Program-made: the position numbers and the translations under genes
Source: Dehalococcoidia bacterium
Lineage (GTDB): Bacteria; Chloroflexota; Dehalococcoidia; GIF9; JBFMDU01
Length of the DNA stretch: 64,000 nucleotides
Assembly: GCA_034431935.1 (NCBI GenBank)
Contig: DAOUCU010000059.1
Coordinates: 2,132 to 66,131 of the forward strand
Direction of reading: 5' to 3'
Notes under the pieces: model-generated
What the model was told of the DNA's origin: nothing
What the model saw: the letters and a program-made list of their open reading frames with translations, nothing else
The model's database searches: none
Part shown: piece after piece, positions 13,768 to 58,532 of the stretch
How positions within the stretch are numbered: the stretch's first letter is position 1
Layout of the letters: every line of letters starts with the position of its first letter

Positions 13768-15969
13768 ATGGTTAATTCTGTTAGGGCTTCAGTTGCTGGC
13801 CGGGATCTGGTTATTGAGACTGGTCTGCTGGCTTCTCAGGCCGACGGTGCGGTTACCATAAGGTATGGCGAATCAGTGGTTCTCGTGACAGCGTGTGTTG
13901 GCCGGGAGCCTCGGGAAGGGGTTGACTTTCTGCCACTGACAGTAGACTACGAGGAGCGGCTGTATGCCGCGGGTAAAATCCCTGGGGGATTCATTAGACG
14001 TGAGGGGCGTCCCAGTGAGGACGCGATTCTGGCCAGCCGTCTAACTGACCGGCCATTGCGACCGCTCTTTCCGAAGGGGTTCCGTAACGACGTTCAGGTT
14101 ATCATCACCGTTTTATCGGCTGATCAGGTTAATGATCCGGATATTCTGGCGCTTGTCGGTGCTTCTGCTGCGCTGACAATATCGTCAATCCCGTTCGCGG
14201 GACCGGTTGGGGCGGTGAGGATGGGCTACATGAATGGGCGGTTGGTGGTTAACCCGACGCTTGTTGAGTTGATGGACAGCGACCTTGATTTGGTAGTGGC
14301 CAGTACTAGGGACGCTATTGTGATGGTAGAAGCCGGTTCGCGTGAAGTGTCACGCGAGCTTCTAGTTGAGGCGATCAAGGTCGGTCATGAGGCTAACCAG
14401 GATATCATCCGGATCCAGGAAGAACTGCGAAAGGCGTGCGGAAAGCCGAAACTGGACTTCCAGCCGCCTGAGGTCAAACCGGACATCACGGCGGCTTGTT
14501 CGGCTATTGTGGAGCGGCTGAATCAGGCACTGACGAGCGGTAATAAGTCCGACCGCGAGAAGATGGTCAGTGCGCTGCAACAGGAGATAGTGGCTCAGCT
14601 TGGCGGTGATTATCCGGAGGGGGAGATAGCTTCAGCATTCGACGCGCAACTGAAGAAGTGCGTTAGGGAGCGTATACTCCAGTTAAATCAGCATGTCGAT
14701 GGCCGGCGGTTTGATGAGATACGTCCTATCAGCTGTCAGGTTGGCCTTCTGCCGCGAACTCATGGCTCGGGACTGTTTAGCCGTGGCCAGACTCAGGTTC
14801 TAACGATTACAACGCTTGGTTCCAAAGGCGAACAGCAAATGCTTGACGGCCTTGGGATAGAGGAAACAAAGCGGTTTATGCACCATTACAATTTTCCCCC
14901 GTTCTCGACCGGCGAAGTGAAACGTGTTGGGTCGCCGGGGCGTCGGGAAATCGGGCATGGGGCACTTGTGGAGCGAGCCATTTCCAGGGTGCTTCCCAAA
15001 GAAGAGGAGTTCCCTTACACTATCCGGCTGGTGTCGGAAGTGCTCAGTTCCAACGGTAGTACCTCTATGGCGAGTGTCTGTGGGTCAAGCCTTTCCCTAA
15101 TGGATGCCGGTGTACCTATCAAAGCGCCAGTGGCCGGCATCGCTATGGGGCTGGTTATGGGAGACGATGGCCGACGGGTTATCCTTACCGATATCGAAGG
15201 TATGGAAGATGCCTGCGGCGATATGGACTTTAAGATAGCCGGTACCGCTAAGGGGATTACGGCGCTACAGCTCGACATAAAGCGGCCCGGTTTGAGCTGG
15301 GAGATACTGGCTGAAGCTCTGGGGCAGGGGTGCAAGGGCTACCTTTTTGTCCTGGATAGGATTAAGGAAACAATCAGCACCAGTCGGCCGGAGACGAGCC
15401 GGTACGCGCCACGCATTTATCAGATAACGATTCCCACGGAGAAGATTGGCGCAGTTATCGGACCTGGTGGTAAGACGATACGGTCAATTATTGAGAAGAC
15501 CAAGGTGACGATTGATGTTGGCGATGATGGTAAGGTGCAAATAGGTTCGACCAGTGAAGATGCGGCTCAGGCCGCCATTCGGATGATTGAGGACCTTACA
15601 CGTGAGGTGGCCGTGGGTGCCGTGTATACTGGCAAGGTGACACGGATATTGAATTTTGGTGCTATGGTGGAGATTCTGCCAGGAAAAGAAGGGCTGGTTC
15701 ACATCAGTGAACTCGCTCCTTACCGGGTGAATGCGGTGGAAGATGTTGTCAAGGTTGGCGACGAAATAATGGTCAAGGTTATAGAAATCGACCGTATGGG
15801 AAGGGTGAATCTGTCCCGGCGGGCGGTCTTTGACGAACAAGCCAAAGCTCCGGTAGCCGGCGGCAGAGCCACCGCTGTATCAAGCCGCGGTGCTGACAGG
15901 CCTGATAAGCGTCGGCCGGGGCCACCGCCATCGCGTCCGACTGGTGGTACTGGGCGCCGTCGTAACTAG
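13768..15969 (+). CDS. pnp: Polynucleotide phosphorylase
   Basis: Two RNase PH domains, a KH domain (GPGGKTIRSI) and an S1 domain. There is an Arg/Pro-rich C-terminal tail. An alternative GTG start exists at 13756. Confidence 0.9.
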   Translation: MVNSVRASVAGRDLVIETGLLASQADGAVTIRYGESVVLVTACVGREPREGVDFLPLTVDYEERLYAAGKIPGGFIRREGRPSEDAILASRLTDRPLRPLFPKGFRNDVQVIITVLSADQVNDPDILALVGASAALTISSIPFAGPVGAVRMGYMNGRLVVNPTLVELMDSDLDLVVASTRDAIVMVEAGSREVSRELLVEAIKVGHEANQDIIRIQEELRKACGKPKLDFQPPEVKPDITAACSAIVERLNQALTSGNKSDREKMVSALQQEIVAQLGGDYPEGEIASAFDAQLKKCVRERILQLNQHVDGRRFDEIRPISCQVGLLPRTHGSGLFSRGQTQVLTITTLGSKGEQQMLDGLGIEETKRFMHHYNFPPFSTGEVKRVGSPGRREIGHGALVERAISRVLPKEEEFPYTIRLVSEVLSSNGSTSMASVCGSSLSLMDAGVPIKAPVAGIAMGLVMGDDGRRVILTDIEGMEDACGDMDFKIAGTAKGITALQLDIKRPGLSWEILAEALGQGCKGYLFVLDRIKETISTSRPETSRYAPRIYQITIPTEKIGAVIGPGGKTIRSIIEKTKVTIDVGDDGKVQIGSTSEDAAQAAIRMIEDLTREVAVGAVYTGKVTRILNFGAMVEILPGKEGLVHISELAPYRVNAVEDVVKVGDEIMVKVIEIDRMGRVNLSRRAVFDEQAKAPVAGGRATAVSSRGADRPDKRRPGPPPSRPTGGTGRRRN

Positions 15970-18885: not shown

Positions 18886-21078
18886 ATGAGCGAGATTATC
18901 CTCACAATCGACGGGGTGGAAGTGAAAGGAAAAGAAGGGTCTACCGTGCTTCAGGCATCCCGGGACGCCGGCATCTACATCCCGGCATTGTGTTCGCATC
19001 CCGATTTGAAGTCCATGGGACAGTGCCGACTATGTGTGGTAGAGATCGAAGGCGCCTCGGAGCCGATGCTGGCTTGCCAGACCCAGGTTGCCTCCGGAAT
19101 GGCGGTGGTCACGAACTCAGAAACAGTGAAGAAGCGAAGACAGGAGAATCTGAGGGATATTCTGCTGACTCATCCTCACGCCTGCCTTGACTGCTGGAGA
19201 CGTGAGCGTTGTAAACCGTTTGATATCTGCCTGCGTAACGTGACTATTACTGAGCGATGCGTTACCTGTGAGAAGAACGGCCACTGCGAATTGCAGATGG
19301 TGGCCGATTTTATCGGCGTGCTACCGGAGATACCTTACACGCCCAAAAAGGAACCGGTCCGGGTTGAGAGTCCGTTCTTCATTCGTGACTACAATCTGTG
19401 TATTCTTTGCGGCAGATGTGTCCGTGTTTGTCGTGATGTGCGCGGCGTCGGCGTCTATGCCTTTGATAACGAAGAGAAACCGACCAGAGTGCTGACGGTG
19501 AAGGATGATTCGGTACTCGAGTCCGGATGTCGGTCGTGCATGGCCTGCGTCGAAGTCTGTCCTACAGGGGCCCTGATGGACCGGCGTAAGGAGAAGCTCT
19601 GGGACGACCGTCAGGCATTCGTAGTGCCGTGCAAGCACGCCTGTCCGGCCCACATCAATATCCCCCGTTATGTCACCTTGTGCGGTGCCGGTAAGTATGC
19701 CGAAGCCCTCGCGGTGATCCGGGAGAAGGTACCGTTCCCGGGGTCACTTGGCCGGGTGTGTATTCACCCATGTGAAGAAGCCTGCCGCCGCGGCGAGTTG
19801 AACTCACCCATTTCCATCAAGGAGCTGAAGCGCATTGCCGCCGACCGCGGGGGAGATAACTGGAAGGTCAAATCGAGGAAGCTGGCTGCGACCGGCAGGA
19901 AAGTTGCTGTAGTCGGCGCCGGACCGGCTGGTCTGACGGCGGCATACTATCTGGCGAAATGCGGCCATTCCGTTACCGTCTTTGAGGCTTTGCCAGAAGC
20001 CGGGGGAATGATGCGCGTGGGCATTCCTGAGTATCGTTTGCCAAGGAATGTTCTGGCTGACGAGGTGAGGGTAATTACGGACACCGGAGTGGAACTGAAG
20101 ACGAATACCAGGGTAGAGTCGGTTGACGAGCTTATGTCCAAGGGTTTTGAGGCTGTTCTGCTGGCGGTAGGCGCCCATCGCGGCACCAAGATGCGGGTGC
20201 CCGGCGAAGAATTGCCGGGCGTTATGGATGGGGCCACTTTTCTCAGGGAAGTGAATCTTGGCAGGAAAGTGAATGTCGGGAACAAAGTCGCGGTTATCGG
20301 CGGCGGCAACTCGGCGATTGACAGTGCCCGTGTGGCGCTGAGGGCCGGTGCCAGGGAGGTGGTGATGATCTACCGGCGGACACGCGCTGAGATGCCGGCG
20401 GCCCCCGAAGAGATTGAGGACGCTTTGCATGAGGGAATCAAGATTGAATTCCTGGCGGCGCCAAATAAGATTGTCCAGAAAGACGGCCGGCTCAGCCTTG
20501 AGTGTATCCGTATGAGGCTGGGCAGACCTGACGCCAGCGGGCGGCGTTCTCCGGAACCGATACCAGGGAGCGAGTATTCCGTGGAGTACGACACCATCAT
20601 CGCGTCTATCGGCCAGGCTCCGGATGTGCCCCAGGGATTCGGCGTCAAGACCGGCCGGGGCAATGTCATAGCGGCCGATGAAAAGACACTTGAGACCAGC
20701 CGCAGGGGAGTGTTCGCCGCCGGTGACACGGTTACCGGTCCGGCTTCGGTAATAGAGGCCATTGCCGCCGGCCGCTTGGCGGCTGTCTCCATCGATAAGT
20801 ACCTTGGTGGTAAGGGTGTGATTGAAGAGTCGCTGGCCCCGGTCGAGCCTGTAAGCAGGTGGCTGGGTAAAGACGACGGCTTCAGTGAGAAGAAGCGTGA
20901 GGAAGGCGCTCTGCTGGCTCCGGCTGCCCGTGTCGGGAGTTTTATCGAGTGTAAAGCGGCCTTAACCGACGAACAGGCAAGGCGCGAGGGCAACCGCTGT
21001 CTTCGTTGCGATCTGAGATTGACTATATGTCCCGCGCCGATGCCTCCGGCACGGAAGGAGTCACCGGTCTTAGCCTAG
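18886..21078 (+). CDS. Fusion protein: NuoG/HydA-type N-terminal Fe-S module ([2Fe-2S], His-ligated and two [4Fe-4S]) joined to a GltD/NfnB-like FAD/NAD(P)H oxidoreductase
   Basis: 730 aa. The N-terminal Cys patterns (CSHPDLKSMGQCRLC...C; HPHACLDCWRRERC; CILCGRCVRVC; CRSCMACVEVCP) are followed by GltD-type clusters (CKHACPAHINIP...CIHPCEEACRRG) and by FAD (VAVVGAGPAGLTAAYYL) and NAD(P)H (VAVIGGGNSAIDSAR) dinucleotide folds. Confidence 0.8.
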   Translation: MSEIILTIDGVEVKGKEGSTVLQASRDAGIYIPALCSHPDLKSMGQCRLCVVEIEGASEPMLACQTQVASGMAVVTNSETVKKRRQENLRDILLTHPHACLDCWRRERCKPFDICLRNVTITERCVTCEKNGHCELQMVADFIGVLPEIPYTPKKEPVRVESPFFIRDYNLCILCGRCVRVCRDVRGVGVYAFDNEEKPTRVLTVKDDSVLESGCRSCMACVEVCPTGALMDRRKEKLWDDRQAFVVPCKHACPAHINIPRYVTLCGAGKYAEALAVIREKVPFPGSLGRVCIHPCEEACRRGELNSPISIKELKRIAADRGGDNWKVKSRKLAATGRKVAVVGAGPAGLTAAYYLAKCGHSVTVFEALPEAGGMMRVGIPEYRLPRNVLADEVRVITDTGVELKTNTRVESVDELMSKGFEAVLLAVGAHRGTKMRVPGEELPGVMDGATFLREVNLGRKVNVGNKVAVIGGGNSAIDSARVALRAGAREVVMIYRRTRAEMPAAPEEIEDALHEGIKIEFLAAPNKIVQKDGRLSLECIRMRLGRPDASGRRSPEPIPGSEYSVEYDTIIASIGQAPDVPQGFGVKTGRGNVIAADEKTLETSRRGVFAAGDTVTGPASVIEAIAAGRLAAVSIDKYLGGKGVIEESLAPVEPVSRWLGKDDGFSEKKREEGALLAPAARVGSFIECKAALTDEQARREGNRCLRCDLRLTICPAPMPPARKESPVLA

Positions 21079-21198: not shown

Positions 21199-21314
21199 TA
21201 TCCGGGACATACGCGGTTTACTCTAAGTGATTTCACTATCTACCTGGGCCGCCCGAGCGCGGCTCATTTCTATGTACGGTGGCTCCGTTCCAAAGCTTGC
21301 CTGTTGGAGGTACC

Positions 21315-21764
21315 ATGGATGTTGAGCTAGCCAAATCGCTTGAGCCTTACCGCAACCAGAAGGGTGCCCTGATCACCGTGCTTCAGAAGGTTCAGGAAAA
21401 GTACGGCTACCTGCCAAAGGATTTGTTGTCTGAGGTTGCCAAACTCTGCCGTACCTCCGTGAGTGACGTATTTGGAGTGGCCTCATTCTACGCACAGTTC
21501 TATTTCTCTCCCAGAGGGCGTCATACAATAAAGTGCTGTGTGGGAACTGCCTGCCACGTTCGTGGTGGTCAGCGTATTCTGGAAAGTGTGGAGAGAGAAC
21601 TGGAGACGAAGGCTGGTGGTACAACCCCGGATGGCAGATTCTCGGTGGAGAAAGTGGCTTGTTTCGGTTCTTGTGCGCTGGGGCCAGTAATCGTTATTGA
21701 CCGCAATGTTTACGGCCGCATGACACCAACTAAGGTTAAGGGTGCTCTGGAGAATTATCGTTAA
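21315..21764 (+). CDS. NuoE/FdsG/HoxE-like thioredoxin-fold [2Fe-2S] subunit
   Basis: CxxxxC...CxxxC arrangement (CCVGTACHVRGG ... CFGSCALGP). GGAGG lies 4 nt upstream of the ATG at 21315. An in-frame upstream ATG exists at 21279. Confidence 0.8.
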   Translation: MDVELAKSLEPYRNQKGALITVLQKVQEKYGYLPKDLLSEVAKLCRTSVSDVFGVASFYAQFYFSPRGRHTIKCCVGTACHVRGGQRILESVERELETKAGGTTPDGRFSVEKVACFGSCALGPVIVIDRNVYGRMTPTKVKGALENYR

Positions 21765-21777
21765 GGTGCGGTGAGAC

Positions 21778-24700
21778 ATGACCTTCGAAGAGTTAAAGTC
21801 ACGAGCTTTGGCTGAATGGCAGAGCTGGCACGACAGCCCAAAAGTACGTATCCTCGTGGGTACAGCTACGTGCGGCAAGGCCGCCGGTGCCGACAGTGTT
21901 GTAAAGGCTATTAGAGAGGAGCTGGCAAATCGGCACGTGGACGCAATTGTAACCGGGGTTGGTTGCATAGGCCTGTGCTATTTGGAGCCGATAGTAGATA
22001 TCATCAAGCCGGGTCAGCCCCGCATCGCGTACGGAAATGTCACGCCGGAGATTGCCGTTGAATTAGTGCGTGACTACGTCGTCGGAGACAATCCTCGTCG
22101 GGACTTGGCGCTGGGGACTATTGGAGAAGGTTCAGTCCAAGGAATACCCCGGCTTTTCGATACTCCGGTTCTCAAGCACCAGGTTCGGCTAGTCTTACGC
22201 AATTGCGGTTTTATCGACCCTGAAAGTATTAGTCACTATATTGCCAATGGTGGCTACTCAGGCTTTGTCAGGGCTCTCGGTATGAAGGCCGATCAGGTGA
22301 TTGACGAACTAAAGAAATCGGGGTTGAGGGGACGTGGTGGTGCCGGTTTTCCTACGTGGCAGAAGTGGGAATTCTGCCGCAGGTCACCCGGCACCCCAAA
22401 GTATGTCATTTGTAATGCCGATGAGGGTGACCCGGGGGCATTTATGAACCGCTCGCTACTGGAGGGCGACCCCCACGCCTTGTTAGAGGGCATGTTGATC
22501 GGCGGCTATGCGATTGGTGCTAGTCATGGCTACATATACTGCCGCGCTGAATACCCCCTGGCTTTGGAGCGCCTGCGCCTTGCGATTAGCCAGATGGGAA
22601 AGTGCGGTTTGATCGGCGATAACATTCTGGGCTCTGGCTTCAGCTTCGATATTACGATTAAGGAGGGTGCCGGAGCCTTTGTTTGTGGTGAAGAGACTGC
22701 TTTGATGGCCTCAATCGAAGGCAAGCGGGGTATGCCGCGTCCCCGTCCGCCCTTCCCGGCGGTCTCGGGTCTATGGGGTAAGCCAACGAATATCAATAAC
22801 GTTGAGACCTGGGCCGATGTTGCCCTGATACTTCAAAGAGGTGCCGACTTTTATGCTGGTTATGGTGTTCCTTCATGCAGGGGTACTAAGACCTTCTCGC
22901 TTGTGGGTAAGGTTGAGCGCACGGGGTTAATCGAAATCCCGTTTGGCATGACGCTGAGAAAAGTAATATATGACATCGGCGGCGGTATTCTGAAAGGAAA
23001 GAAATTCAAAGCAGTTCAGACCGGTGGTCCATCGGGGGGATGTTTGCCTCCTGCGGTGCTTGATATGCCGATTGATTACGAGTCCTTGACTGCCGCCGGG
23101 TCAATTATGGGGTCGGGTGGGATGATTGTGATGGATGAAGGGACATGTGTTGTCGACCTGGCCAAATACTTTCTTAATTTTGTTCAGGCCGAATCGTGCG
23201 GCAAGTGCGTGCCGTGCCGTGTGGGGACGCGGCAGATGCTGTCAGTCTTGACCCGGATAACCAGTGGCCAGGGTCGGGTGGGTGACATCGAACTGCTAGA
23301 AAAACTGGCCAGCACCGTCAAGAATGGCTCGCTCTGCGGTCTTGGCCAGACAGCTCCGAACCCGGTGCTAACCACGCTTAAGTATTTTCGCGAGGAGTAC
23401 GAAGAGCACATCAAGAAGCATCACTGCCGCGCGGCGGTATGCAAGGGGCTGGTTGAGGCGCCGTGCAGTCATACCTGCCCTGCCGGTATCGATGTACCGA
23501 GGTACATACGGTTTATCGAACAGGGCGAGTTTGGTGAGTCTTGCGCCACTATCCGTGAGAAGGTGCCGTTCCCCGGTGTGCTGGGCAGGGTCTGTTTCCA
23601 TCCATGTGAATCGAGATGCCGGCGCGGCCAGCTCGAACAGCCTGTTGCTATCAAGGAACTTAAGCGGCTTGCGGCTGATTTCGATAGCGGCGTCTGGAAG
23701 AAGCGGTTGACGCCAACCAAGCCGACAGGGAAAAGGGTGGCGGTAGTCGGCTCCGGTCCGGCCGGTCTGACCGCGGCTTACTATCTGGCCCGGCTGGGGC
23801 ATGAGGTGACTGTTTTTGAGGCATTGCCTCATGCCGGCGGCATGATGCGAGTTGGTATTCCTGAGTACAGGTTGCCCCGTAAAGTGTTGGATGGTGAAAT
23901 TGATGACATTCTCAGCATGGGCGTCACTATTAAAACGAATACGAAAGTGGCTTCACTGGATGTCCTCAAGGCTGATGGGTTTCAGGCGGTATTCGTGGCT
24001 GTCGGTGCCCACCGTGGTCAAAAGATTGGTATACCCGGAGAAGGAAGCTCCGGTGTCATGGAGGGTGTGGAGTTTCTGAGGTGCATCAGCCTTGGTGGAA
24101 AAGTGGTGGTGGGGGAGCGCGTAGCGGTTATCGGCGGCGGTAATGTTGCTATCGATGCCGCGCGCACCGCTCTGAGATTGGGTGCTAAGGATGTCTTGAT
24201 CCTTTATCGCCGTACCGAGGCGGAGATGCCGGCGGCACCAGAGGAAATCGAAGGTGCACGGCAGGAAGGAGTCAAGATAGTCTTTCTTGTAGCACCGCAC
24301 CGCATAGAGAAAAGGGATGGTAAGCTGGTTCTGGAAATGTTGCGGATGACACTCGGGGACAAGGCTGATGCCAGAGGTCGAAGACAGCCGGTAGCCGTTG
24401 ATGGTAGCCAGTTCTCGGAAGAGTTTGATACGGTAATTGTGGCCATTGGTCAGGTCCCCGATGTTCCCGCAAATTTCGGACTACCATCGGGTGACGGCGG
24501 CGTTATCAAAGTTGACCCGGATACGCTGGCGACTGTGAAGCCGGGAGTATTCTCCGGTGGTGACTGTGTCAGCGGTCCGGCTTCTGTGATTGAGGCAATA
24601 GCCGCCGGCCGCCAGGCTGCGGTCTCGATCGACCAATTCCTCGGCGGTAAAGGGAACATCGAAGAGAAATTGGCTCGTGAGGAGACGATAACCCCGCCGG

Positions 24701-24861
24701 AAATAGAAGAGGGAGAGGCCTACCGTCCCAAAATGCGTCATGCAAGCATGATTAGGCGCTGTGCCAGCTTCACCGAGGTAGATATTGGTCTCACTAGAAA
24801 AGCCGGAGTAAAGGAAACAAAGCGATGCCTTCGGTGCGACCTCGAGCCGAGGGAGGAGTAG
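21778..24861 (+). CDS. NuoF/FdsB-like NAD(H)/FMN subunit with an N-terminal thioredoxin-like [2Fe-2S] domain, fused C-terminally to a GltD/NfnB-like FAD/NAD(P)H oxidoreductase
   Basis: 1027 aa. FMN motif GRGGAGFPTWQKW, NADH site CNADEGDPGAF, N3 cluster ESCGKCVPCRVG...CGLGQ, then GltD-type Cys clusters (CSHTCPAGIDVP...CFHPCESRCRRG) and two dinucleotide folds (VAVVGSGPAGLTAAYYL, VAVIGGGNVAIDAAR). Confidence 0.85.
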   Translation: MTFEELKSRALAEWQSWHDSPKVRILVGTATCGKAAGADSVVKAIREELANRHVDAIVTGVGCIGLCYLEPIVDIIKPGQPRIAYGNVTPEIAVELVRDYVVGDNPRRDLALGTIGEGSVQGIPRLFDTPVLKHQVRLVLRNCGFIDPESISHYIANGGYSGFVRALGMKADQVIDELKKSGLRGRGGAGFPTWQKWEFCRRSPGTPKYVICNADEGDPGAFMNRSLLEGDPHALLEGMLIGGYAIGASHGYIYCRAEYPLALERLRLAISQMGKCGLIGDNILGSGFSFDITIKEGAGAFVCGEETALMASIEGKRGMPRPRPPFPAVSGLWGKPTNINNVETWADVALILQRGADFYAGYGVPSCRGTKTFSLVGKVERTGLIEIPFGMTLRKVIYDIGGGILKGKKFKAVQTGGPSGGCLPPAVLDMPIDYESLTAAGSIMGSGGMIVMDEGTCVVDLAKYFLNFVQAESCGKCVPCRVGTRQMLSVLTRITSGQGRVGDIELLEKLASTVKNGSLCGLGQTAPNPVLTTLKYFREEYEEHIKKHHCRAAVCKGLVEAPCSHTCPAGIDVPRYIRFIEQGEFGESCATIREKVPFPGVLGRVCFHPCESRCRRGQLEQPVAIKELKRLAADFDSGVWKKRLTPTKPTGKRVAVVGSGPAGLTAAYYLARLGHEVTVFEALPHAGGMMRVGIPEYRLPRKVLDGEIDDILSMGVTIKTNTKVASLDVLKADGFQAVFVAVGAHRGQKIGIPGEGSSGVMEGVEFLRCISLGGKVVVGERVAVIGGGNVAIDAARTALRLGAKDVLILYRRTEAEMPAAPEEIEGARQEGVKIVFLVAPHRIEKRDGKLVLEMLRMTLGDKADARGRRQPVAVDGSQFSEEFDTVIVAIGQVPDVPANFGLPSGDGGVIKVDPDTLATVKPGVFSGGDCVSGPASVIEAIAAGRQAAVSIDQFLGGKGNIEEKLAREETITPPEIEEGEAYRPKMRHASMIRRCASFTEVDIGLTRKAGVKETKRCLRCDLEPREE

Positions 24862-24863
24862 AG

Positions 24864-27539
24864 ATGACGACGAATGTCACTCTTACCATAGATGGCAGGG
24901 CAGTCTCTGTTCCACCGGGAGTAACCGTCCTGGAGGCGGCACGTAAGGCTGGCGTTTACATACCGACCCTCTGTCACCATGAGGCGTTAGACCCCTACGG
25001 CGGTTGCCGTATGTGTATCGTCGAAATTGAAGGTATGCGTGGCTTCCCTACCTCGTGTTCGACGCCCGTGGCCGATAAAATGGTGGTCAGGACCAGCACA
25101 ACCCAGATTCAGGAACTGAGGCGCAATATCTTCGAGCTGGTCCTTAGCGAGCACCCTTTCCAGTGCACGTCCTGTGTCAAGAATATGCGCTGTGAACTTC
25201 AACAGGTGGCTGCCCATATCGGGCTGGACAGAGTTTCTCTGCCGTCTGCAGTCAAGGACCTGCCGGTGCTTACTGATAGTGCTTTCTTTGACCGCGATTA
25301 CAAGCTGTGTATTCTCTGCGGCCGCTGTGTGCGTATGTGTCAGGAAGTGCGTGGCGCCGCCGCTATCGCTTTTACTTACAGGGGTGGTGATTCGCTGGTA
25401 GGCACTGCATTCGGGCAGACCCTTCAGGATGCCGAATGCCAGTTCTGCGGCGCCTGTGTTGACGTTTGTCCCACCGGCGCCCTGATGGACCGTGCTCTCA
25501 AGCCGGTCCGCTCGGTTGACCGCCGCGTCATTACCACCTGTCCTTACTGCGGAGTCGGCTGTCAGCTTCTTCTTTCGGTCAAGGACGGGAAGATAGTCTA
25601 TTCGGAAGCCGCACCCGGCATGTCGCCCAACAATGGACAGTTATGCGTCAAGGGCAAATACGGTATTCAAGAGTTCGTGCACCATCCGGAGCGTCTGGCC
25701 AGACCACTAATCCGTAAGGGCGGCAGGCTGGTCGAAAGCACCTGGGACGAGGCGCTTTCGTTGGTCGCATCCAGGCTATCACAATACAGGGGTGACCAGT
25801 TCGGTTTCGTCTCTTCGGCCAAGTGTACCAACGAGGAGAACTACGTGGGGCAGAAATTCGCTCGTCTGGTCATGGGCACCAACAACGTCGACCATTGCGC
25901 CCGGCTGTGTCACGCCTCGACCGTGGCTGGTCTAGCACAGGCCTTTGGTAGTGGTGCTATGACAAATCCCATCGGAGAAATCGCTGATGCCGGCTGTATC
26001 GTGGTCATCGGCAGTAACACCACGGAAGCTCACCCGGTGATCGGCCTCGAGGTCAAGCGCGCGGTGCGGCGTGGTGCTAAACTCATCGTGATTAATCCAC
26101 TTGAAATTGCTCTCTGCCGCAGGGCTGATATCTGGCTCAGACACAGACCGGGCAGTGACGTAGCCCTTGTTATGGGCATGGCCCGGGTTATTCTGGAGCA
26201 GGGTTTGGCCGATATGGACTTCGTCAATCAGCGCTGTGAAAACTTTGATGAGTTTAAAGAATCGCTGGGGGAATACGACCTTGATACAGTTGAAAGGCTG
26301 ACCGGTGTCAGCCGAGAAAATATCGTCGAAGCCGCCCGGACGTATGCCACCTTCAAACCGGCGGCTATTCTTTACACAATGGGCATAACACAGAGCAGCC
26401 ACGGCACCGATAATGTCCTCGCCATCGCCAACCTTGCCATGCTCACGGGCAATCTCGGCAGGTCTTCCAGCGGGGTTAATCCACTGCGCGGGCAGAATAA
26501 TGTCCAGGGTGCCTGCGATATGGGTGCTTTGCCTAACGTCTATCCGGGTTATCAGTCGGTTGCCGACCCGGCAATTGCTGCTAAGTTCGAAGCCGCTTGG
26601 GGCGGTAAGATGAACACCAAACCAGGGCTGACCATGACCGAGATGGTCGGCGCCATTGACCGCGGTGAAATGAGGGCTTTATATGTCATGGGCGAGAACC
26701 CGGTGCTGGCCGATGCTGATGCCAATCATGTTATTAAGGCTCTTGAGAAGCTGGAATTCCTTGTAGCTCAGGACATCTTTCTGACTGAGACCAGTCGGCT
26801 GGCCCATGTGGTACTCCCGGCGGCCAGCTTTGCCGAGAAAGATGGTACTTTTACCAACACCGAGCGCCGTGTCCAGCGTGTTCGTAAGGCGGTCGAGCCA
26901 CCGGGAGAGGCTTTGCCTGACTGGAGGATTGTCTGTAATGTAGCGTCCAGAATGGGGGCGAGCGGGTTCGCCTATTTGACTGCGGAAGAGATTATGAAAG
27001 AGATTGCTGCCTTGACACCGAGCTACGGAGGTATTACCTACGAGCGTCTGGAAAGTTGCGGGTTGCACTGGCCGTGTCCCATGATAGACCATCCCGGGAC
27101 GCCGGTCCTGCACCGGACAACCTTCAGCCGCGGCAAGGGTAGATTCTTCCCGCTCAAGTACCGTCCGCCGGCAGAGTTGCCGGACGCGGACTATCCACTG
27201 GTTCTAACTACAGGACGCTCTCTATTCCACTATCATACCGGCACTATGACTAGGAAGGTAGCGGGGCTTAACCAGATTGAGCCGGGCGGCACCGTTGAAA
27301 TCAATCCGGTTGATGCTGAAAGTCTTGGCATCGCTGATGGCGAGACGGTGAGAGTGAGTTCGCGGCGCGGCGCGGTCATGACCAAGGCAAAGGTGACCGA
27401 AGCTGTGGCCCCCGGAGTGGTCTTCATGGCGTTCCATTTTGCCGAGAGTCCGGCCAATGTGCTGACAAATGCGGCGCTTGACCCGGTGTGCAAGATACCG
27501 GAGTTCAAGGTATCCGCAGTAAGGATAGAAAAGGCTTAA
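24864..27539 (+). CDS. fdhA: Formate dehydrogenase catalytic subunit (FdsA/FdhF-like), Cys-type, with a NuoG-like N-terminal Fe-S domain
   Basis: Start at ATG 24864 with GGGAGGAG upstream, 2 nt after the previous stop. It has the Mo/W-bisPGD fold and a 4Fe-4S site CPYCGVGC...C. The catalytic motif NNVDHCARLCHAS aligns with FdhF RVUHGPS with Cys replacing Sec, and the Arg motif PLRGQNNVQGACDMGALPN is present. Confidence 0.9.
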   Translation: MTTNVTLTIDGRAVSVPPGVTVLEAARKAGVYIPTLCHHEALDPYGGCRMCIVEIEGMRGFPTSCSTPVADKMVVRTSTTQIQELRRNIFELVLSEHPFQCTSCVKNMRCELQQVAAHIGLDRVSLPSAVKDLPVLTDSAFFDRDYKLCILCGRCVRMCQEVRGAAAIAFTYRGGDSLVGTAFGQTLQDAECQFCGACVDVCPTGALMDRALKPVRSVDRRVITTCPYCGVGCQLLLSVKDGKIVYSEAAPGMSPNNGQLCVKGKYGIQEFVHHPERLARPLIRKGGRLVESTWDEALSLVASRLSQYRGDQFGFVSSAKCTNEENYVGQKFARLVMGTNNVDHCARLCHASTVAGLAQAFGSGAMTNPIGEIADAGCIVVIGSNTTEAHPVIGLEVKRAVRRGAKLIVINPLEIALCRRADIWLRHRPGSDVALVMGMARVILEQGLADMDFVNQRCENFDEFKESLGEYDLDTVERLTGVSRENIVEAARTYATFKPAAILYTMGITQSSHGTDNVLAIANLAMLTGNLGRSSSGVNPLRGQNNVQGACDMGALPNVYPGYQSVADPAIAAKFEAAWGGKMNTKPGLTMTEMVGAIDRGEMRALYVMGENPVLADADANHVIKALEKLEFLVAQDIFLTETSRLAHVVLPAASFAEKDGTFTNTERRVQRVRKAVEPPGEALPDWRIVCNVASRMGASGFAYLTAEEIMKEIAALTPSYGGITYERLESCGLHWPCPMIDHPGTPVLHRTTFSRGKGRFFPLKYRPPAELPDADYPLVLTTGRSLFHYHTGTMTRKVAGLNQIEPGGTVEINPVDAESLGIADGETVRVSSRRGAVMTKAKVTEAVAPGVVFMAFHFAESPANVLTNAALDPVCKIPEFKVSAVRIEKA

Positions 27540-27552
27540 AGGAGGCCTGCTG

Positions 27553-28410
27553 ATGTACCGGATTGTAGCCAAGGAGACGCTGGTCCCAAGCATCCAGTTG
27601 ATGAAAATAGACGCTCCGGCGGTGAGCCGCAAAGGCAGGGCTGGCCAGTTCGTCATTGTCCGCACCCACGAGCGCGGCGAGCGGATTCCTCTGACTATTG
27701 CCGATATGGACCCCAAAGAAGGGACGGTGACCATTGTTTTTCAGGAGGTCGGCAAGAGCACTCGCGAGCTGGCCATGTTTAAAGCCGGGGACTTAATTAA
27801 GGACTTCGTCGGCCCGCTGGGCATTCCAACTCATGTTGATAAAGTCGGCACTGTCGTTTGCGTCGCTGGCGGCGTTGGAGTGGCTCCCATCGCCCCCATT
27901 GCCCGGGCCTTTAAGCAGGCGGGCAACAGGGTGATTACCATCATGGGCGCGCGGAGCAAGAACCTGCTTTTCTGGGAAGACCGACTGAAGGCCGTCAGTG
28001 ACGAGTTGATTGTAACTACCGATGATGGCACCTACGGCCGCAAGGGCGTCGTCACCGTTCCTCTGAAAGAGGTGCTGGAGCGGCCTGAAAAAATAGCCGA
28101 GGTCATTGCTATCGGTCCGGTGGTGATGATGAAGTTCTGCTGTGTGACCACCAGGCCGTTCAACGTCAAGACCATCGTCAGCCTCAACTCGCTGATGCTT
28201 GATGGTACCGGTATGTGCGGCTGTTGCCGTGTTTCTGCTGGCGGTCAGACCAAGTTCGTCTGCGTTGACGGCCCGGATTTCGATGGTCACACTATCGACT
28301 GGGACATCTTCCAGGCACGCCAACAGATATATCTTGACGAAGAAAAGCAGGCGTTGCAGGAGTGGGAAAGGTGTGGGTGTGTCAGCGCCGCTCAGAAAGC
28401 GAGGGCTTAA
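27553..28410 (+). CDS. nfnA: NfnA/SudB/PyrK-like FAD/NAD(P)H oxidoreductase subunit with a C-terminal [2Fe-2S]
   Basis: 285 aa. AAAGGAGG lies 8 nt upstream. It has a ferredoxin-NADP reductase fold (GQFVIVR...RIPLTIAD; VVCVAGGVGVAPI) and a C-terminal Cys cluster MCGCCRVS...CVDGP. Confidence 0.8.
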   Translation: MYRIVAKETLVPSIQLMKIDAPAVSRKGRAGQFVIVRTHERGERIPLTIADMDPKEGTVTIVFQEVGKSTRELAMFKAGDLIKDFVGPLGIPTHVDKVGTVVCVAGGVGVAPIAPIARAFKQAGNRVITIMGARSKNLLFWEDRLKAVSDELIVTTDDGTYGRKGVVTVPLKEVLERPEKIAEVIAIGPVVMMKFCCVTTRPFNVKTIVSLNSLMLDGTGMCGCCRVSAGGQTKFVCVDGPDFDGHTIDWDIFQARQQIYLDEEKQALQEWERCGCVSAAQKARA

Positions 28411-28413
28411 GCC

Positions 28414-29808
28414 ATGGCCAAGCTTGATTTGAACCGTGTGGAGATGCCTCGTCAGGAGCCTAAGGTCCGGGCGAAGAACTTCAAAGAAGTGGCCCTGGGA
28501 TATACTGAAGATATGATGAAGGCTGAGGCCAGCCGGTGCATTCAGTGCGCCAAGCGTCCCTGCGTCGCCGGCTGTCCGGTCAATGTTGATATTCCCGAGT
28601 TCATCAGGGCACTTAAAGAGGGCAATTTGGCCGAGTCAGTGCGAATTCTCAAGGGCAAAAATGCCCTGCCGGCTATATGCGGTCGCGTCTGTCCTCAGGA
28701 GACTCAGTGCGAGGAGGCATGTACTTTGGGCAAGAAAGGCGCGCCTGTAGCCATCGGCCGCCTCGAGCGGTATGTCGCCGACTGGGAGCTTGCCCACCAC
28801 TCTGAGGGCAAGCCTCAGATACCGCCGCCGACCGGTAAGAGAATAGCCGTGGTTGGCACCGGGCCTGCCGGCCTCACCTGCGCCGCCGATCTCGCTAAGA
28901 TGGGCCATAAGGTGACCATGTTTGAGGCACTCCATGAGCCCGGTGGGGTGCTTATCTACGGTATCCCCGAGTTCCGTCTTCCCAAGGCTATCGTCAAGGC
29001 CGAGGTCGAGTACGTCAAGTCACTCGGCGTCGAGGTGCGTCTCGATTCCGTTATCGGCAAGCTGAATACCGTTGATGAGATTCTGGGCAGCTACGATGCC
29101 GTTTTCCTCGGCACCGGTGCCGGTCTGCCGATGTTTCTCGGTATCCCGGGAGAGAACCTGAATGGGGTCTATTCTGCCAACGAGTTCCTGACTCGTGTGA
29201 ACCTTATGAAAGCATACCTGTTTCCCGAGTACGACACGCCGGTGAAGAAAGGCCGTAAGGTGGCTGTCGTCGGCGCTGGCAATGTCGCCATGGACGCTGC
29301 CCGTTGTGCCCTGCGTCTGGGCGCCGAGCAGGTCTATATCGTCTACCGCCGCTCCAAAGTGGAAGCTCCGGCCAGGCATGAAGAGCTGGAAAACGCCGAA
29401 GAAGAGGGTGTCATTTTCAAATGGCTGACCAACCCCAAGCGCTTCATCGGCGACGCCAGAGGGTGGGTGACCGGGATGGAATGCCTTGAGATGGAGCTTG
29501 GCGAGCCGGATGCGTCGGGTCGGCGCCGTCCCATTCCCAAACCCGGTACCGAGTTCACCATTGAGTGCGATGTCGCCATCGTCGCCCTCGGCACTACCCC
29601 CAACCCTCTAATTGCCCAGACCACCCAGGGCCTGGCGACTACCAGCCACGGTACTGTAGTGGCCGATGAGCAGACTGGTAAGACAAAGAAAGATAGGGTC
29701 TGGGCCGGAGGCGATGTCGTCACCGGTGCCGCCACCGTCATCAGTGCTATGGGTGCTGGCAAACGTGCCGCGGCCTCAATAGACCAGTTCCTTAGAGGCG
29801 CTCAATAA
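28414..29808 (+). CDS. nfnB: NfnB/SudA/GltD-like NADPH-dependent oxidoreductase subunit
   Basis: 464 aa. Fe-S cluster motifs CIQCAKRPCVAGCP and CGRVCPQETQCEEAC, an FAD fold IAVVGTGPAGLTCAADL and an NADPH fold VAVVGAGNVAMDAARCALR. Confidence 0.85.
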   Translation: MAKLDLNRVEMPRQEPKVRAKNFKEVALGYTEDMMKAEASRCIQCAKRPCVAGCPVNVDIPEFIRALKEGNLAESVRILKGKNALPAICGRVCPQETQCEEACTLGKKGAPVAIGRLERYVADWELAHHSEGKPQIPPPTGKRIAVVGTGPAGLTCAADLAKMGHKVTMFEALHEPGGVLIYGIPEFRLPKAIVKAEVEYVKSLGVEVRLDSVIGKLNTVDEILGSYDAVFLGTGAGLPMFLGIPGENLNGVYSANEFLTRVNLMKAYLFPEYDTPVKKGRKVAVVGAGNVAMDAARCALRLGAEQVYIVYRRSKVEAPARHEELENAEEEGVIFKWLTNPKRFIGDARGWVTGMECLEMELGEPDASGRRRPIPKPGTEFTIECDVAIVALGTTPNPLIAQTTQGLATTSHGTVVADEQTGKTKKDRVWAGGDVVTGAATVISAMGAGKRAAASIDQFLRGAQ

Positions 29809-29852: not shown

Positions 29853-30368
29853 CTAACCCGTCAGTGTTTTTGCTATCTCCGTCGCCCACTTATCTATTGC
29901 ATCCCACTTGCGGAAGTCGCCGGCCTGTGCCTTGACCCGGCCCGTCATGAATTTCTCCAGGAAATTCAGTCTCTTAGTATCAATCAACCCGTGGAAAATG
30001 GCGATATCATTGGGGTGTATCCGTTCGATAGCCGGTTTCAGCCTTCCCGGATATTTCCAGCCGCTCACTAATTCCACCGCATCGCCTTCGCCCGTTGGAC
30101 CGCTGGAAAATATCCATACCTGACGTTCGGTTAACAGCTTTTCATTCCGGATGACGAACTTGACCGCCTCCCTGCGCCACTGCCCGATGTAAACGGCGCT
30201 GCCCATGATTATCGCCCGGTAATGGGAAAGGTCGCTTGCCCGGTTGAAAGGCAGGACATCCACTTCCAGCCCTGCCTTACGTAGCACCTGTCCTATCTTG
30301 TTAGCGATCTCCGCCGTTGCGCCGTACTTGGAAGCAAACGCCACCAGAACCCTGTTCTCAATCTGCAT
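29853..30368 (-). CDS. Flavodoxin-domain protein (long-chain flavodoxin-like, HemG-like architecture)
   Basis: 171 aa. Flavodoxin-like phosphate-binding N-terminus VLVAFASKYGATAEIA and IMGSAVYIGQW. Confidence 0.55.
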   Translation of the reverse strand: MQIENRVLVAFASKYGATAEIANKIGQVLRKAGLEVDVLPFNRASDLSHYRAIIMGSAVYIGQWRREAVKFVIRNEKLLTERQVWIFSSGPTGEGDAVELVSGWKYPGRLKPAIERIHPNDIAIFHGLIDTKRLNFLEKFMTGRVKAQAGDFRKWDAIDKWATEIAKTLTG

Positions 30369-47272: not shown

Positions 47273-47305
47273 AATGACCGGCCGTATCAGCGCCGGACGG
47301 TCATT
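47273..47305 (+). other. Inverted repeat immediately upstream of the MFS-like ORF
   Basis: AATGACCG-(17 nt)-CGGTCATT, 8-bp arms. Confidence 0.25.
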
Positions 47306-58496: not shown

Positions 58497-58532
58497 GTGT
58501 CCTCCTTAAATGCAATTTTAAAATGCCGAGCT

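What the first reader, a model, noticed from the sequence alone, without database searches (positions are those of the whole stretch)
21778..24861. NuoF-like (FMN/NADH, N3 cluster, N-terminal Trx-like 2Fe-2S) fused in one 1027-aa polypeptide to a GltD/NfnB-like FAD/NADPH module
The sequence has the GRGGAGFPTWQKW FMN motif and a CNADEGDPG NADH site, followed by GltD-type Cys clusters and two Rossmann folds. That places two different nicotinamide-nucleotide sites and two flavins (FMN plus FAD) in one chain. This is the cofactor complement expected for a bifurcating transhydrogenase core, comparable to Stn or Nfn logic, physically attached to the Fdh.
Basis: seen in the sequence. Interest (0 to 1): 0.65.

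Follow-up and report, generated by a model that had tools for sequence, protein, structure and literature searches.

The report
NuoF-type subunit fused to NADPH module
This gene is a real, widespread but uncharacterised variant of the flavin subunit of electron-bifurcating enzymes, sitting in a formate dehydrogenase operon, in which an NADPH-binding flavin module has taken the exact place of the domain that normally hands electrons to ferredoxin.

Summary
It is not an artefact: a 79%-identical copy occurs in three independent assemblies with the same synteny, and 151 fused homologues share an identical junction.

The N-half (residues 1-560) is a Bfu/HydB/StnB-type B subunit with FMN/NAD(H), cluster B1, the Zn hinge and the N-terminal [2Fe-2S]. 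The C-half (561-1021) is the circularly permuted, Lys-ligated, NADPH-type GltD cassette otherwise found inside StnC/NfnA.

The gene lies in a tightly packed operon: nuoE, the fusion, a Cys-type fdhA, nfnA and nfnB. A conserved SfrB-like FeS-GltD gene sits nearby.

My best reading is a soluble formate dehydrogenase/CO2 reductase wired to both NAD(H) and NADP(H), with ferredoxin coupling left to the co-encoded NfnAB. Whether it bifurcates is untested.

The only precedent I found is one passing remark on archaeal hybrid hydrogenases (Cell 2024). I rate it a new variant of a known kind, of moderate to good interest.

The parts
21778..24861 (+). Whole fused ORF (1027 aa): Bfu-type B subunit core plus Stn-type GltD cassette
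21778..22167 (+). N-terminal thioredoxin-like domain (aa 1-130), B5 [2Fe-2S] site: C32, C63, C67 (plus C143 just downstream)
   Evidence: Cys align to StnB C13/C44/C48/C113 and are conserved in 119-120/120 close homologues. AF2 pLDDT 80-95.
22168..23052 (+). NuoF-type Rossmann/ubiquitin-like core (aa 131-425): FMN loop 185-197, NAD(H) site 212-222, GAFVCGEETAL 299-309
   Evidence: Pfam Complex1_51K and SLBB. Motifs invariant in 150 homologues.
23053..23457 (+). Four-helix bundle (aa 426-560) with B1 [4Fe-4S] (C474, C477, C480, C520) and the Bfu-signature Zn hinge B2 (C457, H544, C550, C555)
   Evidence: Ligand identities taken from PMC12018979.
23440..23466 (+). Fusion junction: last Zn-hinge Cys (C555) to first GltD-cluster Cys (C563), 7 residues apart. 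The BfuB ferredoxin-like domain (B3/B4) would start here and is absent.
   Evidence: StnB and Csac NfnB alignments end at chain residue 528; NfnA/StnC alignments begin at chain residue 97-98. Identical spacing in 151/151. Unfused relatives carry 2x CX2CX2CX3CP here.
23458..23712 (+). GltD Fe-S domain (aa 561-645). Proximal [4Fe-4S]: C567, C606, C610, K629. Distal [4Fe-4S]: C563 and C614, plus C1017 and C1020 from the tail.
   Evidence: Aligned to StnC C108/C147/C151/K170 and C104/C155/C562/C565.
23713..24657 (+). FAD and NADPH Rossmann domains (aa 646-960): G658xGxxG663, R698, G786GGNVA791, Y810RR812, GGD 927-929
   Evidence: Foldseek rmsd 2.0-2.1 A to P. furiosus NfnL.
24658..24861 (+). C-terminal tail (aa 961-1027) carrying the permuted segment ...FTEVDIGLT...RCLRCD that completes the distal cluster. 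The protein ends 7 aa after the CxxC.
   Evidence: Aligns to the N-terminus of classical T. maritima NfnB (4ylf_B 8-46) and to Csac NfnA/StnC 540-567.
21315..21764 (+). nuoE/bfuC-like gene (149 aa; thioredoxin-like [2Fe-2S], the C1 cluster), 13 nt upstream of the fusion
   Evidence: Pfam 2Fe-2S_thioredx 163 bits, NCBIfam NuoE. Start as called.
24864..27539 (+). fdhA (891 aa from M14): NuoG-like N-terminus (2Fe-2S, His-4Fe-4S, 2x4Fe-4S) plus a Mo/W-bisPGD formate dehydrogenase with Cys at the active site (CARLCH). It starts 2 nt after the fusion's stop.
   Evidence: TIGR01591 863 bits, above its cut-off. 800 bits to FdsA-type FDH. A relative has Sec (TGA) at the same position.
27553..28410 (+). 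nfnA-like gene (285 aa; FAD/NAD plus [2Fe-2S])
   Evidence: NF004862 412 bits, above its cut-off. Conserved next to the module.
28414..29808 (+). Classical nfnB-like gene (464 aa; non-permuted GltD/NfnL type)
   Evidence: TIGR01316 611 bits, above its cut-off. Outgroup position in the cassette tree.
18886..21078 (+). 730-aa protein: NuoG-type N-terminal FeS domains fused to a second Stn-type GltD cassette (SfrB-like / BfuA-GltD). Conserved member of the module.
   Evidence: It lies between fdhA and nfnA in L084. Its cassette is sister to the fused one.

Best explanation
The ORF encodes the flavoprotein (B) subunit of a soluble Bfu-type (HydABC/StnABC-like) iron-sulfur flavoenzyme. Together with the adjacent NuoE-like C subunit and FdhA, which acts as the NuoG-like A subunit and carries an active Mo/W-pterin site, it forms a cytoplasmic formate dehydrogenase/CO2 reductase.

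Shown from sequence: the B core keeps FMN/NAD(H), cluster B1, the Bfu-specific Zn hinge and the N-terminal [2Fe-2S]. Its ferredoxin-like C-terminal domain (B3/B4) is replaced, seven residues after the hinge, by a Stn-type NADP(H)-FAD-2x[4Fe-4S] cassette.

Inferred: the cassette's two clusters sit where B3/B4 would. NADP(H) is therefore wired to the FMN/B1/C1 site through the arm that normally leads to ferredoxin. The complex would then interconvert formate/CO2 with both NAD(H), at FMN, and NADP(H), at FAD.

Also inferred: coupling to ferredoxin is delegated to the classical NfnAB encoded immediately downstream. The conserved 730-aa SfrB-like FeS-GltD protein would provide a second, Moorella-type NADP(H) entry to FdhA. 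Whether NAD+ and NADP+ reduction are energetically coupled (bifurcation) or merely parallel cannot be decided from sequence.
For: - Domain identity and junction.
- Absence of B3/B4 versus presence in the closest unfused relatives: (L052, L038 and L033 each carry 2x CX2CX2CX3CP after the same hinge).
- Role of that domain: the B3/B4 domain and the NfnC C-terminal domain form the ferredoxin site, and C1 swings between FMN and B3/B4 (PMC12018979; PMC11829005).
- Cassette type: Stn-type Lys (K629) 150/150, R698 150/150, NADPH-type YRR 150/150. StnC FAD is described as a non-bifurcating NADPH entry (PMC10482914).
- Operon packing: gaps of 13, 2, 13 and 3 nt.
- Conserved module: the same six genes occur in a 79% relative and, in a different order, in a 68% relative.
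- FdhA looks active: above-threshold TIGR01591 match, 800 bits to FdsA, and a Cys/Sec pair at the catalytic position.
- No stand-alone dicluster ferredoxin ORF in the window.
- The fused B subunit pairs with different catalytic partners elsewhere (FdhA, HydA, HoxU-like plus GltB-like), as expected of a core module.
- Biochemical precedent for GltD-type NADPH modules driving FDH: Moorella NADPH-FDH with an SfrB-type beta subunit (PMC13040438).
Against: - No structure places the cassette. The AF2 monomer model has pTM 0.59 and pLDDT 52-63 at the junction, so the packing is undetermined.
- In StnABC/NfnABC the homologous cassette feeds the A-subunit cluster chain, not the C1/B3 arm. The tethered cassette could still dock there.
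- Ferredoxin might bind the cassette's distal cluster, as it does in NfnAB/NfnSL. The one published comment on a similar archaeal fusion guessed ferredoxin as the partner.
- An uncoupled enzyme with both NAD(H) and NADP(H) sites would short-circuit the two pyridine-nucleotide pools, which argues for some coupling or gating not explained here.
- NfnAB also sits next to unfused Bfu clusters (L046, L047, L068, L070), so its adjacency is not specific to loss of the ferredoxin domain.
- Nucleotide specificity of the FMN site was not determined.
Confidence: 0.55

Rival explanations
1. Stn-like wiring with a re-tethered cassette. The GltD module is attached to B only as a matter of gene topology. In the assembled complex it docks on the NuoG-like clusters of FdhA (or of the 730-aa protein), as in StnC/NfnA, and serves as a mid-potential NADPH entry. 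FMN/B1/C1 still bifurcate to NAD+ and to ferredoxin or flavodoxin, which binds elsewhere, for example at C1 or at the cassette's distal cluster. The enzyme would be a combined Fdh/Stn hub using formate, NADPH, NAD+ and ferredoxin.
For: The cassette is homologous and sister to the StnC insert: same permutation, same Lys ligand. The B core has the Bfu signatures (His of the Zn hinge, B5) that distinguish bifurcating from non-bifurcating NuoF homologues. The published guess for the archaeal fused HydB was ferredoxin. A flavodoxin-domain ORF lies directly downstream on the opposite strand.
Against: There is no linker. The first cluster ligand is 8 residues from the last Zn ligand in 151/151 proteins, which ties the cassette's Fe-S domain to the hinge where B3 normally sits. 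The experimentally defined ferredoxin site needs the missing Fd-like domain, and mutating B4 strongly lowers bifurcating activity. The flavodoxin ORF is absent from the 79% relative.
Confidence: 0.25
2. Non-bifurcating, dual-specificity NAD(P)+-reducing formate dehydrogenase. Loss of B3/B4 marks loss of bifurcation, as in non-bifurcating HydB/FdsB. Electrons from formate simply reach either FMN/NAD+ or FAD/NADP+ with no energetic coupling.
For: Characterised non-bifurcating homologues lack the extra B clusters (PMC9304861). Both NAD+ and NADP+ are thermodynamically downhill from formate at standard conditions (potentials). StnC-type FAD is described as non-bifurcating.
Against: The B core retains the Zn-hinge His and the B5 cluster, and its best matches are bifurcating B subunits (718 bits) rather than FdsB (449 bits). 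An uncoupled enzyme would act as a futile transhydrogenase. The strict conservation of the hinge-cassette geometry suggests a gated path.
Confidence: 0.15
3. Annotation at face value: a complex I NuoF subunit, or an assembly or frameshift artefact joining nuoF to gltD.
For: Public records name homologues 'NADH-quinone oxidoreductase subunit NuoF'.
Against: TIGR01959 scores 476.5, below its cut-off of 558.65. There are no membrane nuo genes nearby. Independent assemblies and 151 proteins share the same in-frame junction.
Confidence: 0.01

Closest known systems
StnABC / NfnABC (Nfn-Bfu) transhydrogenases: S. ovata 8OH5, C. saccharolyticus 9BOV, T. sibiricus 9N5U
   Same: The NuoE-like C subunit. 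The B core with FMN, B1, Zn hinge and B5 (55-59% identity). The same circularly permuted GltD cassette with a 3Cys+Lys proximal cluster, FAD and an NADPH site (39-46% identity).
   Different: There the cassette is inserted in the A subunit after its [2Fe-2S] domain, and B keeps its ferredoxin-like B3/B4 domain. Here the cassette is on B in place of B3/B4. The A subunit there is a dead Fdh-like remnant; here it is an apparently active FdhA.
Electron-bifurcating formate dehydrogenases of the Bfu family (Fdh-Bfu; G. acidurici HylABC-FdhF2, type 1 Fdh-Bfu as in C. hydrogenoformans)
   Same: NuoE/NuoF/NuoG-like module joined to a Mo/W formate dehydrogenase. The closest unfused relatives of the window's B core belong here (Dehalococcoidia L052, Kuenenia L038).
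   Different: Those B subunits end in the 2x[4Fe-4S] ferredoxin-like domain and use ferredoxin plus NAD+. This one has an NADP(H)-FAD cassette instead.
HydB with a 'glutamate synthase (GltA) domain' in archaeal group F hybrid [FeFe]/[NiFe] hydrogenases (Greening et al., Cell 2024, PMC11216029)
   Same: A NuoF-like diaphorase fused to a GltD-like domain, next to NuoE-like and NuoG-like subunits. This is the only published mention of such a fusion that I found.
   Different: Archaeal, and hydrogenase-linked rather than FDH-linked. It was only modelled, not analysed: replacement of B3/B4, the permutation, the Lys ligand and the NADPH signature were not discussed, and ferredoxin was assumed as partner. 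Sequence relationship to the window protein was not tested here.
Classical NfnAB / NfnSL and glutamate synthase GltD
   Same: Fold of the FAD/NADPH domains (rmsd about 2 A to P. furiosus NfnL) and two [4Fe-4S] clusters. A classical NfnAB pair is encoded in the same operon.
   Different: The classical form is not permuted (its CxxC is N-terminal), uses Glu rather than Lys at the proximal cluster, has a bifurcating FAD and pairs with NfnA.
Moorella thermoacetica NADPH-dependent formate dehydrogenase (alpha: SfrA2+FdhF3; beta: SfrB2)
   Same: A GltD-type NADPH module coupled through Fe-S clusters to a NuoG-N-terminal FdhA. The window's 730-aa protein has the SfrB-like architecture.
   Different: Moorella's enzyme has no NuoE/NuoF module. 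Orthology of the 730-aa protein to SfrB2 was not tested.

Membership tests
Bfu family B subunit (BfuB/HydB/StnB/NfnB of NfnABC) | NuoF-like FMN/NAD(H) core with N3-type [4Fe-4S] (B1) | tested here: met
   Pfam PF01512 and PF10589. C474/C477/C480/C520 and the FMN/NADH loops are invariant. 718 bits to 9bov_B.
Bfu family B subunit (BfuB/HydB/StnB/NfnB of NfnABC) | B2 hinge site with the Bfu-specific His (3 Cys + His; Zn in most structures) | tested here: met
   C457/H544/C550/C555 align to StnB C428/H515/C521/C526 and are conserved in about 150/150. Definition from PMC12018979.
Bfu family B subunit (BfuB/HydB/StnB/NfnB of NfnABC) | N-terminal thioredoxin-like domain with the B5 site | tested here: met
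   C32/C63/C67/C143 match StnB C13/C44/C48/C113 and are complete in 119-120/120 close homologues. The set is degenerate in distant fusions.
Bfu family B subunit (BfuB/HydB/StnB/NfnB of NfnABC) | C-terminal ferredoxin-like domain with B3 and B4 (two CX2CX2CX3CP motifs), the ferredoxin docking site | tested here: not met
   Alignments to five solved B subunits stop at the hinge. There is no such motif in the protein. Unfused relatives have it.
Bfu family B subunit (BfuB/HydB/StnB/NfnB of NfnABC) | Adjacent NuoE-like C subunit with the C1 [2Fe-2S] and a NuoG-like A subunit | tested here: met
   NuoE-like gene 13 nt upstream. FdhA with a NuoG-like N-terminus 2 nt downstream.
Bfu family B subunit (BfuB/HydB/StnB/NfnB of NfnABC) | Ferredoxin- and NAD-dependent electron bifurcation | not testable with these tools
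   Needs enzyme assays.
Stn / Nfn-Bfu transhydrogenase | Circularly permuted GltD cassette with a 3Cys+Lys proximal cluster, FAD and an NADPH site | tested here: met
   K629 equals StnC K170. The tail CxxC equals StnC C562/C565. YRR and GxGxxA are present.
Stn / Nfn-Bfu transhydrogenase | Cassette inserted in the A subunit (StnC/NfnA) between its [2Fe-2S] domain and the NuoG/Fdh-like part | tested here: not met
   The cassette is C-terminal on B. The A subunit (FdhA) has no GltD insert.
Stn / Nfn-Bfu transhydrogenase | Catalytically dead Fdh-like domain (no pterin site) | tested here: not met
   FdhA passes the TIGR01591 cut-off, has both Moco-binding domains, and shows a Cys/Sec pair at the active site.
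Classical NfnB / GltD | N-terminal CxxC segment (non-permuted) and a Glu (Nfn) ligand on the proximal cluster; partner NfnA or GltB | tested here: not met
   The segment is C-terminal and the ligand is Lys. TIGR01316 scores 311, below its cut-off of 471.75.
Complex I NuoF (as annotated in public records) | Equivalog-level match and a nuo operon with membrane subunits | tested here: not met
   TIGR01959 scores 476.5, below 558.65. NF010120 scores 383.4, below 389. There are no nuoH-N genes in the window.
Non-bifurcating NAD-FDH beta subunit (FdsB) | NuoF-like subunit lacking B2-B5 | tested here: not met
   It has the hinge His and B5 Cys. FdsB-type chains score 449/385/374 bits against 706-718 for Bfu B subunits.

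The most novel reading that the evidence does not exclude
Replacing the ferredoxin exit with an NADP+-reducing cassette creates a ferredoxin-independent bifurcating/confurcating enzyme. Electron pairs from a mid-potential donor (formate here; H2 or another substrate in sister operons) are split at the FMN/B1/C1 site. One goes to NAD+ on the high-potential side. The other goes, via the swinging C1 cluster and the cassette, to NADP+ on the low-potential side: 2 formate + NAD+ + NADP+ <-> 2 CO2 + NADH + NADPH. At the low formate or H2 levels of subsurface and syntrophic habitats this would allow NADPH (about -370 to -380 mV in vivo) to be made from donors too weak to reduce NADP+ alone. With the co-encoded NfnAB it would rebuild ferredoxin reduction in two steps, with NADPH as the diffusible intermediate.
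Probability: 0.25. Interest if true: 0.8.

Novelty: new variant of a known kind. Interest (0 to 1): 0.58.

Why it matters
The mechanism of Bfu-type (HydABC/Stn) bifurcation is still debated. Current models rest on the mobile C1 cluster handing low-potential electrons to B3/B4 and then to ferredoxin. This family is a natural experiment in which that arm ends in an NADP(H) flavin instead. It occurs across many anaerobic phyla, including Dehalococcoidia, Aminicenantes, Zixibacteria, Desulfobacterota, Planctomycetota, Bacteroidota and Clostridia, and it pairs with at least three catalytic partners.

If the arm is functional, it would show that the bifurcating core can use a pyridine nucleotide as its low-potential partner. 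That would change how formate, H2, NADH, NADPH and ferredoxin pools are connected in metabolic models of uncultured anaerobes. These genes are currently annotated as 'NuoF', so models treat them as complex I parts or as ordinary NAD-dependent FDH. Even if the arm is not functional, correct annotation matters for predicting whether formate metabolism in Dehalococcoidia is NAD-, NADP- or ferredoxin-linked.

Tried and rejected
1. Frameshift or assembly artefact: rejected.
2. Complex I NuoF: rejected.
3. AF2 monomer model to decide how the two halves pack: inconclusive. pTM is 0.59 and the junction pLDDT is 52-63. The tool gives no coordinates, so cofactor distances could not be measured. Foldseek only re-confirmed the two halves separately.
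4. Promoter/terminator scan: counts equal the shuffled expectation, so it says nothing about transcription units. A hairpin at 21245-21266 between the 730-aa gene and nuoE is only a hint.
5. Relocated B3/B4 domain as a small ORF: none found. The only CX2CX2CX3C motifs in the window lie inside the 730-aa protein and FdhA.
6. Single versus multiple origin of the fusion. On NJ trees without support values the cassette is monophyletic, but fused and unfused B cores are interspersed. This suggests module swapping at the hinge but is not resolved.
7. Literature. No description of the fusion appears in the Bfu, Stn and Nfn papers read. The only mention found is the archaeal HydB-GltA remark.
8. Orthology of the 730-aa protein to Moorella SfrB2 was considered but not tested, because no sequence was available.


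Full report
**1. Observation**

Window 21778-24861 (+) is a single uninterrupted ATG-initiated ORF of 1027 codons. Pfam places five domains along it: Complex1_51K (179-349), SLBB (374-421), NADH_4Fe-4S (460-544), Fer4_20 (548-635) and Pyr_redox_2 (653-944), with E-values of 1e-20 to 1e-44. The window corresponds to NCBI contig CAZFZZ010000079.1 of assembly GCA_964523555.1. The closest named relatives are Dehalococcoidia MAGs.

**2. The fusion is real, not an artefact**

- The protein database holds more than 120 clusters of 1022-1031 aa at 64-79% identity and about 100% coverage.
- The 79%-identical P0002 was assembled independently from ENA, JGI and Logan data. Each time the gene order was the same: S15, PNPase, DapB, Asd, DapA, the 730-aa gene, NuoE, the fusion, FdhA, NfnA, NfnB, MutS.
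- In an alignment of 151 fused proteins, including 30 from other phyla at 45-55% identity, the distance between the last hinge Cys and the first GltD Cys is always seven residues.
- An exhaustive HMMER search of 1.84 billion 50%-identity representatives returns about ten full-length fused representatives (1032-1130 aa, one alignment stretch across the junction) and many partial ones spanning the junction.

**3. Anatomy of the N-half**

Residues about 24-560 match the B subunits of bifurcating Bfu-type enzymes best: Csac NfnB 9bov_B (2.6e-214), Tsib NfnB, NiFe-HydB, S. ovata StnB and the FeFe-HydBs. These score far above non-bifurcating FdsB (about 374-449 bits) and complex I NuoF.

A ligand audit against Sporomusa StnB, using the published ligand lists, gives:

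- B1: C474/C477/C480/C520.
- Zn hinge (B2): C457/H544/C550/C555, including the His said to be conserved in virtually all Bfu B subunits.
- B5 [2Fe-2S]: C32/C63/C67/C143.

B1 and B2 are invariant in about 150 homologues. B5 is complete in the window's clade but degenerate in distant fusions.

**4. The junction**

Alignments to five solved B subunits all stop at the hinge (StnB residue 528...HIRDKKCPAKSCKPL versus ...HIKKHHCRAAVCKGL). Alignments to the GltD domain of Csac NfnA, Tsib NfnA and StnC begin 0-4 residues later, at chain residue about 97-105.

In canonical B subunits the hinge is followed by a ferredoxin-like domain of roughly 55 or more residues with two CX2CX2CX3CP motifs (clusters B3 and B4). 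The closest unfused relatives of this very protein have that domain (L052 Dehalococcoidia, L038 Kuenenia, L033). It is absent here, and no such motif occurs elsewhere in the protein. In the 64-kb window the motif is found only inside the NuoG-type domains of FdhA and the 730-aa protein.

According to the cryo-EM work on T. sibiricus and C. saccharolyticus NfnABC, this domain receives low-potential electrons from the swinging C1 cluster and forms, with the NfnC C-terminal domain, the ferredoxin binding site.

**5. Anatomy of the C-half**

Residues 561-1021 correspond to the insert of StnC/NfnA (chain residues about 98-567). By alignment to StnC:

- The proximal cluster is C567/C606/C610 plus K629, matching StnC C108/C147/C151/K170.
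- The distal cluster is C563/C614 plus C1017/C1020, matching StnC C104/C155/C562/C565.

The C-terminal segment ...FTEVDIGLT...RCLRC aligns to the N-terminus of classical T. maritima NfnB (residues 8-46). The cassette is therefore circularly permuted relative to NfnB/GltD, exactly as in StnC/NfnA.

K629, R698 (StnC R239), the FAD and NADPH glycine motifs and the 2'-phosphate YRR motif are invariant in 150 sequences. The protein ends seven residues after the CxxC. StnC C100 and C114 are Val here, and C114 is reported to vary among StnC homologues. The StnC FAD has been argued to be a non-bifurcating NADPH entry.

**6. Genomic context**

The gene order is nuoE (21315-21764), the fusion, fdhA (24864-27539), nfnA (27553-28410) and nfnB (28414-29808), with gaps of 13, 2, 13 and 3 nt.

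FdhA has the full NuoG-type N-terminus and both pterin-binding domains. It passes the TIGR01591 cut-off and scores 800 bits to FdsA-type enzymes, with CARLCH aligned to CARVCH. In the 68%-identical relative L084 the same position is an in-frame TGA (Sec).

Upstream lies a 730-aa protein with NuoG-type FeS domains and a second Stn-type cassette. In L084 this gene sits between fdhA and nfnA with a 4-nt overlap. The six genes therefore form a conserved module whose order varies.

The 730-aa architecture is SfrB-like, the class to which the beta subunit of Moorella's NADPH-dependent FDH belongs. This is a lead only, not a tested orthology.

**7. The family elsewhere**

In 80 loci from GTDB species representatives, the fused B subunit is always preceded by a NuoE-like gene and followed by a NuoG-N-terminal-like gene. 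The catalytic partner differs:

- FdhA (window, L001, L005, L023, L055).
- [FeFe]-hydrogenase HydA (L012; L016, Ca. Dichloromethanomonas).
- Most often, a HoxU-like protein of about 230 aa plus a protein of about 527 aa carrying the glutamate-synthase FMN domain PF01645. This occurs in Aminicenantes, Zixibacteria, Bacteroidales, Ignavibacteria and Planctomycetota.

On NJ trees without support values, the cassettes of all B-fusions form one clade, sister to the Firmicute StnC inserts. The window's 730-aa cassette falls next to the window's fused cassette. B cores of fused and unfused proteins are interspersed, and the window's core nests among unfused Fdh-linked B subunits. This pattern suggests module exchange at the conserved hinge.

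**8. Mechanism**

Shown: the cofactor-binding residues, the missing ferredoxin domain, the tight hinge-cassette junction, and the conserved operon.

Inferred: the cassette clusters occupy the B3/B4 position, so NADP(H) communicates with FMN/B1/C1 through the arm that normally ends at ferredoxin. The complex would then link formate/CO2 with NAD(H) and NADP(H), while the co-encoded NfnAB connects NADPH to ferredoxin.

Using the in vivo potentials quoted in the papers (NADH about -270 to -280 mV, NADPH about -370 to -380 mV, CO2/formate -420 to -432 mV standard), both reductions are downhill from formate at standard conditions. At the micromolar formate typical of anoxic sediments, NADP+ becomes the harder acceptor, and coupling to NAD+ reduction would be useful. 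In the reverse direction, NADPH plus NADH could reduce CO2 only at low formate.

Three things cannot be decided from sequence: whether coupling exists, whether ferredoxin still binds, and whether the cassette instead docks on the FdhA cluster chain as in Stn. The AF2 model did not settle the packing.

**9. Comparison and novelty**

The protein fails one defining feature of canonical Bfu B subunits (B3/B4) and two features of Stn (cassette in the A subunit; dead Fdh domain). It is clearly built from the same parts. It is best described as a new variant of the Bfu/Stn kind.

The Bfu phylogenomic paper, the Stn papers, the NfnABC structure papers, the Nfn review and the Dehalobacteriia and deep-sea Chloroflexi genome papers do not describe it. 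The only precedent found is a sentence and a modelling note on archaeal group F hybrid hydrogenases, whose HydB carries a 'GltA domain' assumed to serve ferredoxin. Public annotation calls these proteins NuoF.

**10. Verdict**

The Stn analogy is correct, but the claim of a complete bifurcating core overlooks the missing ferredoxin domain.
- Interest is moderate to good. It is a widespread, unstudied rewiring of a mechanistically debated enzyme core, though it sits within a family already known for modular rearrangements.

Noticed in passing
window 18886-21078 (+): A 730-aa protein with NuoG-type N-terminal FeS domains fused to a second Stn-type permuted GltD cassette (it also ends in RCLRCD). 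Its cassette is the closest paralogue of the fused one. The gene is conserved with the module but at a different position in L084. In L033 the same type of protein follows an unfused NuoE-NuoF pair. The architecture resembles SfrB / the Moorella NADPH-FDH beta subunit.
   Followed up: partly
window 27553-29808 (+): A classical NfnA/NfnB pair, translationally packed directly behind fdhA. NfnAB also follows unfused Bfu clusters with a degenerate Fdh-like A subunit in L046, L047, L068 and L070. Bfu-NfnAB adjacency is therefore recurrent across phyla.
   Followed up: partly
loci L002-L004, L013, L018-L022, L025, L026, L029, L031, L034, L042, L051, L053: The most common context of the fused B subunit outside the window's clade is NuoE, fusion, a HoxU-like FeS protein of about 230 aa, then a protein of about 527 aa with the glutamate-synthase FMN domain (PF01645). 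This may be a Bfu-linked glutamate-synthase-like enzyme. I found no description of it in the papers I read.
   Followed up: partly
L012 13013-15037; L016 13049-14842: In a Clostridiales MAG and in Ca. Dichloromethanomonas elyunquensis the fused B subunit is followed by a full [FeFe]-hydrogenase HydA. This suggests an NADP(H)-linked HydABC variant without the B3/B4 domain.
   Followed up: partly
L084 about 14183-14185 versus the window fdhA active-site Cys codon (in ...HCARLCHAS...): Sec (TGA) in the 68% relative versus Cys in the window at the FdhA catalytic position. The gene caller split the relative's fdhA into 353 + 541 aa at that codon.
   Followed up: yes
window 29853-30368 (-): A flavodoxin-domain ORF (PF12724, 83 bits) lies convergent with nfnB. 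It could be a low-potential carrier, but it is absent at this position in the 79% relative (L081).
   Followed up: partly
proteins P0211, P0214, P0218, P0229, P0242, P0252, P0257: Representatives of about 640-655 aa align only from the four-helix bundle (query residues about 418-441) through the hinge and the whole GltD cassette. They appear to have a B1 domain, hinge and GltD without the FMN domain. They may be truncated ORFs or a separate architecture.
   Followed up: no
window aa 194 of the fusion (nt 22357-22359): The FMN loop reads GFPTWQKW. The Trp replaces a Gly that is present in 30/30 distant fusions and is rare in the close family (Trp in only 8/120). Sporomusa StnB also has Trp here (GFPTWFKW).
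   Followed up: no
window 1796-3733 (-), 47305-49704 (+), 57498-59333 (-): Other items in the window: a 645-aa CoA-transferase with a C-terminal acetyltransferase-like region; a 799-aa MFS-domain protein with no NCBIfam match; and an EtfAB pair. The rest of the window is housekeeping (RecJ, FtsY, MutS, RecG, ArgS, TrpS, GatA, EF-G, PrfA).
   Followed up: no
window 21245-21266 (+): A GC-rich hairpin followed by a T-rich stretch lies in the 237-nt gap between the 730-aa gene and nuoE. It may be a terminator or attenuator separating two transcription units, but terminator-like hits in the region are no more frequent than in shuffled sequence.
   Followed up: no
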